DNA of 64,000 nt from Squalus acanthias (Eukaryota): the NCBI GenBank assembly GCA_030390025.1, contig CM059432.1, forward strand, positions 66,714,001-66,778,000, read 5' to 3'. The position numbers and the translations under genes were made by a program. The notes under the pieces are model-generated. The model did no database searches. It had not been told where the DNA came from and saw only the letters and a list, made by a program, of their open reading frames with translations. Each line of letters opens with the position of its first letter. Positions within the stretch are counted from its first letter, which is position 1. Below are positions 8,032 to 48,299 of the stretch, in pieces.

Positions 8032-9532
8032 CATAGAAAAATAGAATCATAGAAGATAGGAGCAGGAGTAGGCCATTCGGCCCTTCTAGCCTGCTCCGCC
8101 ATTCAATGCGATCATGGCTGATCATCCAAATTCAGTACCCTGTCGCTGCTTTCTCCCCATATCCCTTGATCCCTTTAGCCTTAAGAAATATATCCAACTC
8201 CTTCTTGAATCTATTTAATGAATTGGCCTCTACTGCCTTCTGTGGCAGAGAATTCCACAGGTTCACCACTCTCTGGGTGAAGAAATTCCTCCTAATTTCT
8301 GTCCTAAATGGCTTACCCCTTATCCTTAGACTGTGACCCCTGGTTCTGGACTCCCCGACCATCGGGAACATCCTTCCTGCATCTAGTTTGTCCTGTCCTG
8401 TCAGAATTTTATAAGTTTCAATGAGATCCCCTCTAATTCTTCTAAACTCTAGTGAGTATAAGCCCAATCGACCCAATCTCTCCTCATACGTCATTCCTGC
8501 CATCCAAGGTATCAGCCTTGTGAATCTTCGCTGAACTCCTTCCATGGCAAGAACATCCTTCCTCAGATAAGGCGACCAAAACTGCACACAGTACTCAAGG
8601 TGTGGTCTCACCAAGGCCCTGTACAACTGCAGCAAGACATCCTTGTTCCTGTACTCAAACACTCTCGCTATGAAGGCCAACATACCATTTGCCTTCTTAA
8701 CCGCCTGCTGCACCTGCATGCTTACCTTCAGCGACTGGTGCACAAGGACACCCAGGTCTCGTTGCACTTCCCCTTCTCCCAATCTATTGCCATTCAAAAA
8801 ATAATCTGCCTTTCTGTTTTTAACACCAAAGTGGATAACCTCGCATTTATCCACGTTATATTGCATCTGCCACGCTTCTGCCCAATCACCCAACCTGTCC
8901 AAATCATCCTGGAGTTTCTCGGCATCCTCCTCGCAGCACACACGCTCACCCAGTTTTGTGTCGTCTGCAAACTTGGAGATGTTACATCTAGTTCCCTCGT
9001 CTAGATCATTAATATATATTGGGGTAAAAATTCAGTTGGTTGCGCCTCCCGTTAGCGCCTTAAGAGGGCGCTAATGGGGCGCAAAGCCGCCAGCGCCCGG
9101 GCGCAGCGATGTTTGCGCCGCTCGGGAACTTAACTAGACATTGTGCGGCGCCGCTAAACCTTACTGCTGCGACCACCTGCGCGCGCAGATTGTGACGTCA
9201 TTCCATGGTGCAACGCCCTTGTGGCGCCCCGGAGCGGAAATTGAGTGGCGCCCCCTGCCTTACCGCCTGGCGCATCCAACGACCGGAAGACTGGAACGCT
9301 ATCAATCGCTGTGGGGCTGGGGGGGGGCGCTATTTAAAGGGGGCCTCTTCCTGTCTTTTTCTGTGGTTGACATTTTTGCACCACTCGTTCTGAGAGAGAG
9401 AGAGAGATTCGGAGAGAGAGAAAGAGAGACTTCTGCATTGAGTCAACGCTTTGTGAGGTAGTTTTGCCTACTGATCCTAACTTCGCTGCTACTTTGGTTG
9501 CTGTCCTTCATAACTTTGCTTGCAAAGAGACT

Positions 9533-10694
9533 CTGTGGGGGCTGCACTGAATGGGGGCGTCGTCCTGCTCCAGCTGAATCGGAGGACACAGAGACGCAGA
9601 GAGAGAGTGGCAATGATGGCCAGACGGAGGAGGGCCAACAGGCGTCTGTACAGGAGAGCTTACCCTCCCAGGGTATATCGTGAACAGCTCTCCTACATTC
9701 ATATGTCTGAGGAGCTGTGTTTGCGAAGGCTGCGATTCAGCAAGGAGGTGGTCACTGAGCTCTGCCACCTGCTGCAGCCAGATCTGCAGCCTCAACTGAG
9801 GTCCAGGACGTCTCTGTCGGTGGCAGTGAAGGTCACAGTGGCTCTCAACTTTTATGCTACTGGCTCATTTCAAGCTGCTGCTGGGGACCTCGCCAATATC
9901 TCCCAGTTCGCGGTGCATTGCTGCATCCGGCAGGTCACAAATGCCCTCTTTAAAAGGAGACGAGAGTTCATCTCTTTCCCCATGACCCCAGACAAGCAGC
10001 GTGACCGCGCTCTGGGCTTTGCGAGGATAGCGGGCTTCCCCATGGTGCAGGGCGCCATTGACTGCACGCATGTGGCTTTGCGTGCTCCACATGAGAATGC
10101 CGAGGAATTCCGGAACAGAAAGGGGTTCCATTCCTTGAATGTTCAGTTGGTCTGTGACCACAGACAGCTGATACTCGCTGTCAATGCCCACTATCCTGGC
10201 AGCTGCCACGATGCTTTTATCCTGCGCCAGACTACTGTGGCAGAACTTTCGAGGCACCGCATCAGCCAGTTGGTTGGCTTCTCGGGGACAAGGGGTATCC
10301 ATTGAGCACCTGGCTGATGACACCGCTCAGTACGCCCAACACCCCTGCTGAGCTGCGGTACAATGAGAGCCATCAAGCTACCAGGAACATCATTGAGGGC
10401 ACAATCGGCGTGCTGAAGCAACGGTTCCGCTGTCTCGACCATTCTGGAGGAGCCCTGCAGTACTCGCCTGAGCGAGTATCCAACTTCGTAGTTGTGTGCT
10501 GCATGTTGCATAACATGGCAATCGTCAGGACCCAGCCAATGCCACCAGGCCTTGGAGCACCACCAGAGGAGGAGGAGGAAGAGGAGGAAGAGGACGAGGA
10601 GGATGATCATCAGCAGCACCAAGGCGGGAGGGCGGCCCACAATGGTGAAACTGCAAGGGCCGTCCGTCAACGGCTGATAGCAAGCCGCTTCTAG
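9533..10694 (+). pseudogene. Harbinger DDE transposase (HARBI1-like), frameshifted
   Basis: ORFs 9520-10305 and 10302-10694 join through a 1-bp deletion near 10248 relative to copy 2; start ATG disrupted (CTCTGTGGG vs CTATGGG); GAIDCTH, LGDKGY and IEGTIG motifs present. Confidence 0.92.
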
Positions 10695-11006
10695 GGCCCC
10701 TGCTGTGGAAATGGCTTCTGCCATTGCTAACAACATCAATGAACCCAGCACGCAACCCCTAAGCCGGCCAAGGCACCAATAATTCCAAACACCAAACATG
10801 TATATTTTGAATACAAAAACTTATTTATTTTACAAACTCTGTGTGTGTCATTTCCTCATGACAAACTCATAGAAATAAACACAAAAAAACAGTCAATAAC
10901 ATAACTGGTTCTCACAACCTGGAGATAATGTCCAAAACACTAAACAAAAGTTGGACCACGAACCTCGGCCTTTAATAAAAAAATGACCAGCATTTTGTCA
11001 CACCTC

Positions 11007-45663: not shown

Positions 45664-47483
45664 CTACTTTTTGCCCTTCGAGGGTGATCTCCTTCCCTTG
45701 CGCACTTCCCCCCTTCTAACCCTACTGCTCCTCCGTAATGGGACCTCAGTGGCTGCAGCAAGGCTGGTGGAAGGCTGCTGCTCGTCAGACCCTGACACTG
45801 CAAATGCCCCTGAAGGACGGCCTCGACCAGTTCTGGGCCTGGAGGGCCCGGCTGCAGACTGCACCAACTCTGCATGGGCGGCAGCAGTCTGTCCTACAGG
45901 CGGTGGCAAGTGCAGTGGAGAAGTGACAGTGTTGGCAGCAGGAATGCTGTCATCGTGAGATAGGACAGCAACTCCCTGCTCGCCCGACACACTGGCACTC
46001 CCACGGGGCAGCACTTCAGCATCCGGAACAATCTGCTGGAGCACAGATTGCTGGCCTGCTGCGGCGCGGTGAGAGCCCCGGGGACATGTGAACGAACCAT
46101 CGAGGTTGGCAGCAGTCAGTGCTCGCGTGGCCTCAATCTGAGTCTGCATGAGAGCAGTCAGAGATGGGATCACGGTAGTCAGTGACTGAATTGCAGCACT
46201 AAGCGTTAGTGTGGCATCCGCCTGTGCTACAGCGAAGTGCTCCACACTCCTTGCCAGTGACTCAATGCATTCGGGCACCCTTCCCACTGCACCCATGAGC
46301 TCAGTGTGCATGCCCACCGCCTGGGTGTTCATTTCTGCGATCAGCCGCTCCTCCTCTGCGTCCATTGCAGTAGGAGTCGCTGGCATACTCTCCCTCTGGG
46401 GAGAAGGCCCCCGTTCTTCCCTACCCCCATGGCGTTGCTGCAGCCCGCTGGGTCCTGGAGCTTCACCCTCATCAGACCCTTCCCCCCTGCTCCCCTCCAG
46501 GGAAGGCGTGTTCCCAGTGTGGGCATGGGCTTCCTCGGGAGAGGGTGGCACTGATGCTCCGGCTTCCTCTTCCTCCTCGGCTGCAGCTTCACTCCCACTG
46601 GCAGCTTCAGGGCCCATCTCCTCAGCTGGTGAATCACCATCTGAAAGCAGGGAGGTACAAGAGTGGCTTTAGCGTGAGGACAGGGTGGCAGTAAGGGAGG
46701 AATAAGTGCAGCGAGTTAGCAAGTTGGATTGAAAGTGTCAAAGGCTGGTGTTGTGAGGGACAAGTGGAAGGACGGAGGACAAAAAGGTGATGACCTTACC
46801 ATTGCTGTCCAGAACGGGGTCGGCGTCTCCAGTGGCGACGGGACCGATCACCCGGCTTGCCACAATCCTGTAGACGCGCTCCTCAAGATCGCTGAGGGGT
46901 TGCAGCTGAGGCCGCCCTCCACCTGTCCGTTGCTGCTGTCTCCTATTATGTGCCAGCTTGGCCTGCAAGTAAAAGGACAGCATCTGAGTAAATATACAGC
47001 CATGGTCTTGCCTGATGTGCCTCCCATAGGTGAATAGCCCTTACTGTATGCAGCCATGGTCTTGCCTGATGTGCCTCCCATAGGTGAATAGCCCTTACTG
47101 TATGCAAAGTGTGGAATGTGTGTGTGTGTTTCATGAAAGGGCCATAGGTGTTGGATGAGTGTTGTGCATTGGGGTTTTAAGACCCTCTGGCCATAGAGTG
47201 AGGTTGAGATGGAGGGATGGAGAGGTATTGAGAAAAAGCCACTCACCCTGACGACCCGAGTGAGGTCGTTGAACTTTTTGCGGCATTGAACATGGGTCCT
47301 GGGCACCATGCTCCTGGAGGAGACGCTCTGAGCCACCTCCCTCCACACTCTTCTGTACTCGCGTGGCAAAGGCCTCCTGCCACTCTCAGGGAAGAGTATA
47401 CATCTTCTGCGCTCCACCGCGCCAACCAGAGCATCCAAGGCCCGCTCGGTGAAGCGCTGAGCTCGTTCTCTCACCCTCTCCAT
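45664..47483 (-). CDS. Harbinger Myb/SANT protein, 3 exons (47483-47247, 46962-46800, 46640-45664), 458 aa
   Basis: Splice sites AGG|GTGAGT..TTGCAG|GCC and ATG|GTAAGG..TTTCAG|AT; the frame joins ORF 45664-46617 with no stop. Confidence 0.87.
46997..47104. repeat. Perfect 54-bp tandem duplication in Myb intron 1
   Basis: CAGCCATGGTCTTGCC..CTTACTGTATG occurs twice; copy 1 has it once. Confidence 0.95.
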
Positions 47484-48299
47484 CCTTGGCAGCAAAATGG
47501 ATTCACAGGTCTCTCCATGCCGAGATTCAAGGCTGCAATGAGCAGGGTGTGGCTGGGGAGCAAGTTGGCCCCCCACGCTTTAAGAACTGGCCGGCGCCAG
47601 TGTGTCTGTGTTCCCTCGCTAACTGGCAGCACCTGCGCTGCGCTCGCGCGCTGAGTTAGCGCCTCACTGCTCGGCCTTTGCGCCCTAAGACAGGTGTGCA
47701 GCGCCTGATTTAGCGCTCCACTCACCTCCCGGGGCGGTAAAAGTGAAGTTTCCAGTCATTGGCGATAATTAGCGCCAGGCGCTAATTTTTGCGTCCAGAC
47801 GATATTTGCGCCCCAAACGGGGCGCGACCTAATTTTTCCCCCATTGTCTCTAAAAGTTTCCCAACCATCTATGTGAGGCTGACTGGCCTGTAGTTGTCAG
47901 GTTTATCACTCTCCTTTTTTTAAACATGGGTGTAACATTTGCAGTCCTCCAGTCCTCTGGCACCAGCCCCATATCCAAGGTGGATTGGAAGATTGTAGCC
48001 AGAGCCTCTGCAATTTCTGCCCTTACTTCCCTCAGAAACCTCGGAAACATCCCTTCCAGATCAGATGACTTTTCTACTTTGAGGACTGCCAACCTTTTAA
48101 GTACTTCCTCTTTATCTATTTTTATCCTATCCAATATCACTACTGCTTTGTCCTTTACAGTTACTTTGGCAGCATCCTCTTCTCTATTGAAGACAGATGC
48201 AAAGTTCTCATTTAATACCTCAGCCATGCCCTCTGTCTCCACACGAATATTTCCTTTTTGGTCCCTAATCGACTCCACCCTTCCTTTGACCACCCTTTT

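What the first reader, a model, noticed from the sequence alone, without database searches (positions are those of the whole stretch)
9021..47842. Two ~98% identical copies 35 kb apart, each inserted independently at TATTGT in a CR1 RT region
Seen: the empty sites are tatatATTgtgaa and ggattATTgtctc, both in CR1 ORF2, both with the transposase antisense to CR1, and the flanks are non-homologous. This supports two transposition events, not a segmental duplication. ATT differs from the TWA and CWG duplications usually described for this superfamily. Inference: a TATTGT target preference, local hopping, or both.
Basis: partly seen in the sequence, partly recalled or inferred. Interest (0 to 1): 0.75.

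Follow-up and report, generated by a model that had tools for sequence, protein, structure and literature searches.

The report
Twin Harbinger transposons, known target motif
Two 98%-identical cut-and-paste Harbinger transposons sit 35 kb apart in separate retrotransposon copies of a shark-like genome, and their shared landing sequence most likely reflects a loose target motif already known for this kind of transposon, so this is an ordinary case.

Summary
Copies A (9021-13132) and B (43678-47842) are 98.3% identical two-gene Harbinger elements. Each has an ATT duplication, and each empty site restores a CR1-type ORF2 frame. Public contigs span A's empty site. They are two insertions, not a duplication.

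The inference is weaker. Eleven older Harbingers in the window have nine different central triplets but share the flanks: purine at +1 in 15 of 15 half-sites, T at +4 in 13 of 15. This matches the published zebrafish Harbinger3_DR target. None of their four full sites is TATTGT. ATT, AWT and NNN duplications are already listed in this superfamily.

CR1 enrichment is not shown (6 of 13). Direct local hopping is disfavoured: the family is abundant, and A and B differ at 5 of 18 family-polymorphic sites. A narrower family-specific ATT preference stays open (about 1% under a pooled model, post hoc, n=2), because no genome-wide flanks were obtained. The scan noted this motif earlier in other windows of this genome.

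The parts
9021..13132 (+). Copy A of the Harbinger element (TIR to TIR, 4112 bp); transposase frameshifted, Myb-like gene open
   Evidence: the base missing near 10246 is present in B and in contigs of 4 of 4 runs (table 4)
9018..9020 (.). Left ATT target-site duplication of A
13133..13135 (.). Right ATT target-site duplication of A
   Evidence: joint 9017->13133
9613..10694 (+). Transposase gene of A, broken by a 1-bp frameshift near 10246
11007..12772 (-). Predicted three-exon Myb/SANT gene of A (12772-12536, 12305-12143, 11983-11007); 458 aa to first stop
   Evidence: splice model inferred from GT/AG motifs; no RNA data
8043..9017 (-). Downstream part of the CR1-type LINE interrupted by A (end of RT core, C-terminus, 3' tail)
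13136..14657 (-). Upstream part of the same LINE
   Evidence: (RVT_1 E 1.4e-18)
43678..47842 (+). Copy B of the Harbinger element (4165 bp); both reading frames open; 54-bp tandem duplication in the first Myb intron
43675..43677 (.). Left ATT target-site duplication of B
47843..47845 (.). Right ATT target-site duplication of B
44269..45351 (+). Transposase gene of B, 360 aa (an in-frame ATG also lies at 44191); predicted catalytic D150, D226, E262
   Evidence: Pfam DDE_Tnp_4 E 2.4e-39; spacing 75/35; best outside hits 'putative nuclease HARBI1' of sharks and rays, top 66%
45664..47483 (-). Predicted three-exon Myb/SANT gene of B (47483-47247, 46962-46800, 46640-45664); 458 aa to first stop
   Evidence: Pfam Myb_DNA-bind_5 E 2.1e-10
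43417..43674 (-). Downstream fragment of the CR1-type LINE interrupted by B
   Evidence: tblastn 52% to the window's ORF2
47846..48300 (-). Upstream fragment of the same LINE
2873..3682 (.). Comparison site: short non-coding Harbinger-like insert in a LINE, GACTC[TTT]GTGTC; left end eroded
27218..32600 (+). Comparison site: older Harbinger inserted in another Harbinger's transposase gene, GAAGC[AAT]GATTC
51633..57049 (-). Comparison site: older Harbinger, AAAAC[ATA]GACTT; 10 of 12 flank matches to the Harbinger3_DR target
58193..62423 (-). Comparison site: older Harbinger, GACAC[AGA/AGT]AAGTT (duplication with one mismatch)

Best explanation
A and B are two separate insertions of one abundant two-gene Harbinger family, and they likely share TATTGT because these transposons prefer a loose palindromic flank (about A-N-N-Y-[3 bp]-R-N-N-T, AT-rich centre), with the exact six-base match likely partly chance. 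Shown: two complete elements with 3-bp duplications in unrelated positions of two LINE copies, and the same flank motif at the older Harbingers of the window. Inferred from Harbinger3_DR and mPing as cited: the Myb/SANT protein binds the element ends and recruits the DDE transposase, which cuts the target with a 3-nt stagger and reads bases on both sides of it. Inferred: both landed in CR1 because CR1 makes up much of the local DNA, and landed near each other because the family has many copies and this region collects Harbingers.
For: Anatomy: DDE_Tnp_4 plus a convergent Myb_DNA-bind_5 gene, 12-bp GG-starting TIRs, 3-bp TSD. Motif: in 15 half-sites of 11 other elements, +1 is a purine in 15 of 15 (p 3e-5), +4 is T in 13 of 15 (p 1.5e-6) and +5 is a pyrimidine in 15 of 15. 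Shifting the termini by 1 or 2 bases lowers +1 to 5-9 of 15 and +4 to 4-10 of 15. The half-site consensus G-W-G-T-Y-T resembles the arms of Harbinger3_DR's AAACACCWGGTCTTT. A and B fit +1 in 4 of 4 half-sites and +4 in 2 of 4. The other elements' triplets vary (TTT, AAT, ATA, AGA, TTT, ATT, TAT, CAT, CCT, TTC, ACA). Abundance: 47,415 and 73,351 contigs from two runs lie on the stretch (element plus LINE flanks), with all 30 bins covered. With 1000 copies in an assumed 3-5 Gb genome, 7-12 pairs within 35 kb are expected at random. About 38 of the 64 kb are Harbinger DNA by hand-drawn extents. A-versus-B coding differences are 9 synonymous and 21 non-synonymous over 558 and 1734 sites, pN/pS about 0.75, as for neutral decay after insertion.
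Against: Under a model pooled from the other elements, an identical run of 6 or more bases holding the triplet arises in only 1.1% of pairs, and the same triplet in 4.3%, so the family may have a narrower preference. Termini of the older elements were picked by eye: 13 of the 56 regex rows plus 6 found by reading. Seven are single ends whose duplication cannot be checked. One dropped candidate near 25890 would miss at +1. CR1 occupancy is nominally high if the whole window is the background (p 0.029). Copy number was not measured: the read tool states that summed contig depth is no copy number.
Confidence: 0.68

Rival explanations
1. This family has narrowed the shared motif to an AWT/ATT core, so T[ATT]GT or a close variant is its real preferred target.
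For: Both sites share TATTGT in the same orientation to the element; about 1% under the pooled model. AWT/ANT cores exist elsewhere in the superfamily.
Against: n=2 and noticed after the fact among many windows. The closest relative in the window (20558; same GGGGGAAAAATT end, transposase 66% identical) has CCT beside its one visible end. 0 of 4 other full sites are TATTGT, though 2 of 11 triplets are ATT or AAT.
Confidence: 0.17
2. One copy arose from the other, or both from a nearby donor, by local hopping.
For: Same orientation, 35 kb apart, 98.3% identical. They carry the same base at 13 of the 18 family-polymorphic sites shown.
Against: They differ at 5 of those 18 sites, where both bases occur in a fifth or more of the laid depth. 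Seven differences cluster in 47 bp (corrected p about 0.0015), as for distinct or mosaic source lineages. Back-joints like B's duplication occur in other copies (table 5c). Chance pairs are expected at modest copy numbers. Only 40 of 205 variant rows were shown, and sister subfamilies contribute at the 92% cut-off. Hopping would not explain a shared target sequence.
Confidence: 0.1
3. The family targets CR1 ORF2 itself, in antisense orientation.
For: 2 of 2 in CR1 ORF2, both antisense; chance of 2 of 2 in CR1 is 0.04-0.18 depending on the background.
Against: The two sites are at different, non-homologous ORF2 positions. 6 of 13 elements in CR1 equals CR1's 43% share of non-Harbinger DNA (p 0.51). 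Most LINE pieces here are on - and 6 of 9 transposase loci on +, so antisense is the commonest pairing.
Confidence: 0.04
4. A and B are one insertion copied by segmental duplication.
For: High identity and same orientation only.
Against: Similarity stops at the ATT triplet and the bases beside it (9017-13137 against 43674-47847); the flanks are unrelated; each copy has its own duplication.
Confidence: 0.01

Closest known systems
Harbinger3_DR of zebrafish (= NuwaI-2_DRer in Han et al. 2015, PMC4482050)
   Same: About 4.2 kb, 12-bp TIR, DDE_Tnp_4 and Myb_DNA-bind_5 genes. 3-bp duplication inside an extended palindromic target AAACACCWGGTCTTT whose arms match the half-site consensus here.
   Different: The central triplet is ATT, not CWG, and 0 of 11 other triplets in the window are CWG. 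A and B match only 7 and 5 of 12 flank bases (background mean 3.4). The Myb protein is predicted at 458 aa against 221.
NuwaII group, including SENKUSHA1 (NuwaII_TRub, C|NNN|G)
   Same: GG-starting TIRs, DDE plus Myb/SANT, fixed bases beside a 3-bp duplication; SENKUSHA1 is listed with a free central triplet.
   Different: A and B have T, not C, before the triplet; the triplet is not TNA.
Pangu group (ANT/AWT/ATT duplications)
   Same: ATT fits ANT; TIRs may start GG; two listed families carry a Myb domain.
   Different: No vertebrate is among its 15 listed genomes, and most lack a recognised second-ORF domain. The best relatives here are vertebrate HARBI1-like proteins. Clade placement was not tested.
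Plant PIF / mPing
   Same: Two-protein system with a target preference beyond the 3-bp duplication (9 bp).
   Different: TWA core; 0 of 13 elements here have TWA.

Membership tests
PHIS / PIF-Harbinger superfamily (broad sense) | DDE transposase of the DDE_Tnp_4 (HARBI1-like) type | tested here: met
   Pfam E 2.4e-39; D150, D226, E262; 529 homologues, listed ones mostly named HARBI1-like
PHIS / PIF-Harbinger superfamily (broad sense) | Second gene with Myb/SANT domain | tested here: met
   Myb_DNA-bind_5 E 2.1e-10; open three-exon model in both copies
PHIS / PIF-Harbinger superfamily (broad sense) | Short TIRs and 3-bp target-site duplication | tested here: met
   empty-site joint skipping 4112+3 bases
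PHIS / PIF-Harbinger superfamily (broad sense) | Target preference extending beyond the duplication | tested here: met
   15 of 15 at +1 and 13 of 15 at +4 for other window elements; A and B 4 of 4 and 2 of 4. Not tested on other copies of the A/B family.
PHIS / PIF-Harbinger superfamily (broad sense) | Both proteins needed for transposition | not testable with these tools
   needs a cell assay
PIF/Harbinger group sensu Han 2015 | TWA duplication | tested here: not met
   ATT in both copies
NuwaI (Harbinger3_DR group) | CWG duplication | tested here: not met
   ATT in both; 0 of 11 others are CWG
NuwaI (Harbinger3_DR group) | TIR starts GGG, 12-61 bp; DDE plus Myb/SANT | tested here: met
NuwaII | C|TNA|G target | tested here: not met
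   T|ATT|G in both
Pangu | ANT duplication | tested here: met
   ATT against the definition; two sites only
Pangu | Second ORF mostly without a known motif | tested here: not met
   Myb domain present; two listed Pangu families also have one
Pangu or Nuwa | Transposase falls in that clade | not tested
   No group-labelled reference proteins came from the tools; hits are named only 'putative nuclease HARBI1'
CR1 clade (host LINE) | ORF2 with reverse transcriptase of CR1 type | tested here: inconclusive
   RVT_1 hit; the clade name rests on recalled motifs, and no curated repeat library was available

The most novel reading that the evidence does not exclude
This vertebrate, Myb-carrying Harbinger family has switched to an asymmetric target, T[ATT]GT, and inserts in a fixed orientation to it. 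That would be a directional, Pangu-like ATT core on a Nuwa-type body, and copy B, with both genes open, would allow a direct test of which protein sets the central triplet.
Probability: 0.15. Interest if true: 0.45.

Novelty: new member of a known kind. Interest (0 to 1): 0.15.

Why it matters
As read, it matters little: it is one more family of an abundant transposon class, with an extended target preference already in print for zebrafish and plants. A modest point for specialists is that these shark-like Harbingers keep the Harbinger3_DR flank arms while the central triplet varies, so they fit none of the duplication-defined groups cleanly. If the family really inserts directionally at T[ATT]GT, it would show how a two-protein transposase changes its target core.

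Tried and rejected
2. Flanks from public reads: the one read-laying run covered A with its flanks in 4 of the 24 listed runs. All were contigs, and none of the 24 loose-end rows shown (1618 hidden) lay at a terminus.
3. A degenerate terminal pattern gave 0 hits in viral contigs, 9 in prokaryotic genomes and 9 in metagenomes. 0 of 18 extend appreciably beyond the pattern (longest alignment 32 bp), so they are chance.
4. Horizontal transfer: 20 runs, labelled with 11 coded organisms, hold about half or more of the words. Four further runs of the same study and organism as two of the holders hold next to none. The one such holder laid (X10) also carries the LINE flank. This could be admixed DNA or relatives, so it is not used as evidence.
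5. Segmental duplication: rejected.
6. Candidate termini left out before the motif count because they were not tied to Harbinger homology or a checkable context: near 25890, 39567, 41650, 41886, 42433 and 57678, and the other regex rows.
7. Literature: Sinzelle et al. 2008 was not held and is known only as cited. Searches with no hit were Harbinger+TSD+cartilaginous+Myb+TIR and Harbinger+TSD+coelacanth+insertion site. Searches listed papers that were not on this question by title or abstract start and were not opened, except PMC2836001. PMC8437027 gave no duplication sequence in the passage found.
8. Look-ups of earlier scan notes by sequence and near this place found nothing.
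Full report
Observation. A self-comparison of the window finds one long near-identical pair, 9017-13137 against 43674-47847. Global alignment sets the elements at 9021-13132 (A) and 43678-47842 (B), with 4041 matches, 68 substitutions (98.3%), four small indels and a 54-bp tandem duplication in B. Both have a 12-bp imperfect GG-starting TIR and ATT on each side. Taking out the element and one ATT restores an open minus-strand ORF2 frame at each site, at different places in the protein. For A, three other LINE copies in the window and contigs in 3 of 4 public runs span the empty site with one triplet. 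I cannot tell whether those contigs are paralogs or an empty allele. The 1-kb flanks are unrelated.

What the element is. B encodes a 360-aa DDE_Tnp_4 transposase (E 2.4e-39) and, convergent to it, a Myb_DNA-bind_5 gene (E 2.1e-10). A three-exon model with canonical splice sites is open for 458 aa in both copies (inferred, no RNA data). A's transposase has a private 1-bp frameshift. The best outside relatives are 'putative nuclease HARBI1' proteins of sharks and rays, the top one at 66%, which suggests a cartilaginous-fish host. Coding differences between A and B are 9 synonymous and 21 non-synonymous, pN/pS about 0.75, and 24 of the 68 substitutions are CpG transitions. This looks like neutral decay of about 0.8% per copy (inference). 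The window is a nest of repeats: about 38 kb Harbinger, 11 kb CR1-type LINE and 15 kb other DNA (Harbinger extents drawn by hand).

Target motif. No genome was available, and neither reads nor collection scans gave flanks of other family copies. I therefore used the older Harbingers of the window as a comparison: four with both ends and seven with one end, giving 15 half-sites. Their ends were read by eye and noted before I saw the published motif or the earlier scan note that named the +/-4 positions. I had already noticed GT after the triplet while picking them, and two ends were set one base from a first guess. Written outward from the triplet, +1 is a purine in 15 of 15 (G in 12), +4 is T in 13 of 15 and +5 is a pyrimidine in 15 of 15. 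Moving the ends by 1-2 bases weakens this. One dropped candidate near 25890 would miss at +1. The consensus G-W-G-T-Y-T resembles the arms of the zebrafish Harbinger3_DR target AAACACCWGGTCTTT (PMC3016246). The element at 51633 matches 10 of 12 flank bases; A and B match 7 and 5 against a background mean of 3.4. The central triplets vary: nine different ones in 11 elements, none TWA or CWG, two ATT or AAT. TATTGT is thus one instance of a looser shared motif: pyrimidine, AT-rich triplet, then GT. Under a model pooled from these elements, two sites share an identical run of six or more bases holding the triplet in 1.1% of draws, against about 0.1% for random DNA. That leaves room for a narrower preference in this family, but the sample is two and the match was noticed after the fact. 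The nearest relative in the window (20558) has CCT beside its visible end.

Is ATT unusual? In Han et al. 2015 (PMC4482050) PIF/Harbinger has TWA, NuwaI CWG, NuwaII C|TNA|G and Pangu ANT. Its supplement lists ATT and AWT for Pangu families, NNN for Harbinger-3_Aaae and C|NNN|G for SENKUSHA1. An extended preference of 9 bp in plants and 15 bp in vertebrates is described as a feature of the superfamily (PMC2836001). The element works like Harbinger3_DR and matches it in size, TIR length and domains, but fails the CWG test. It passes Pangu's triplet test and fails its usual second-ORF trait. I file it as a PHIS/Harbinger member without a group, since clade placement was not tested.

CR1 targeting. 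Six of 13 elements with a visible end adjoin or interrupt a CR1-type LINE. That equals CR1's 43% share of non-Harbinger DNA (p 0.51) but exceeds its 20% share of the window without A and B (p 0.029). The right background lies between the two, so enrichment is neither shown nor excluded. The two sites are not homologous positions. Antisense is the commonest pairing here, as most LINE pieces lie on - and 6 of 9 transposase loci on +. Twenty unoccupied TATTGT/ACAATA sites remain in the window, 4 of them in CR1.

Local hopping. Two runs laid 47,415 and 73,351 contigs on the 4951-bp stretch, covering all 30 bins. The family is abundant, although this gives no copy number. With 1000 copies in an assumed 3-5 Gb genome, 7-12 pairs within 35 kb are expected by chance, and about one with 300 copies. 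Of 26 variant rows shown inside A, I tabulated 25 and left out one at an indel. Seven are private to A; at 18 polymorphic sites A and B agree at 13 and differ at 5. Seven A/B differences cluster in 47 bp at the first Myb intron-exon 2 border (corrected p about 0.0015), and back-joints like B's duplication occur in other copies. This points to the same subfamily but distinct or mosaic source lineages, not parent and daughter. Caveats: only 40 of 205 variant rows were shown, sister subfamilies contribute at the 92% cut-off, and gene conversion could blur the signal.

Other organisms. Runs labelled with 11 coded organisms hold about half or more of the words, but four same-study runs of two of them hold next to none. 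I draw no conclusion on horizontal transfer.

Earlier scan notes. Several unchecked notes on other windows of this genome report the same flank motif and CR1 or satellite hot spots explained by it. One supplied the +/-4 wording, which I tested here. They are leads, not support.

Papers seen. PMC4482050: passages, the Results section in two parts, supplement 1 part 3 and two searches in it; supplements 2 and 3 (figures and copy tables, which may hold flank logos) were not read. PMC2836001, PMC3016246 and PMC8437027: passages only. Sinzelle et al. 2008: not held, known as cited. All others: search listings only. Two searches for Harbinger duplications in cartilaginous fish or coelacanth found nothing; the library lacks most subscription journals and Repbase Reports, so this does not show that the family is undescribed.

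Verdict. A family-specific, oriented ATT core remains possible (about 15%) and is testable with the assembly.

Noticed in passing
window 1-64000: The window is a dense nest: at least 11 older Harbinger elements or remnants besides A and B (about 60% of the DNA), interleaved with CR1-type LINE pieces.
   Followed up: partly
window 26425-33619: A Harbinger (27218-32600) is inserted in the transposase gene of another Harbinger with a clean AAT duplication, and itself carries further inserts (about 29975-30090 and 31450-32285).
   Followed up: partly
window 12272-12340 vs 46929-47051: A and B differ at 7 positions in 47 bp around the first Myb intron-exon 2 border, next to B's 54-bp tandem duplication; this suggests a mosaic or converted segment.
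   Followed up: partly
window 44269-45351 and 45664-47483: Copy B has both reading frames open, so it is a structurally complete, possibly autonomous copy.
   Followed up: partly
window 22868-23373: A 159-bp, 96% inverted repeat with a 188-bp spacer begins a different insert just past the Myb start of the element at 20558; its identity was not determined.
   Followed up: no
window 25044-25312: Two LINE 3' ends lie tail to tail, forming a 105-bp, 89% inverted repeat.
   Followed up: no
window 16340-16720, 31450-32285, 52500-53570: AT-rich inserts interrupt the Myb genes of three older Harbingers; possibly solo LTRs, by eye only.
   Followed up: no
window 8600-13550: Runs labelled with ten further coded organisms hold about half or more of the words. 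One laid run gives 544-750 bp contigs 99% identical to A, while same-study runs hold next to none.
   Followed up: partly
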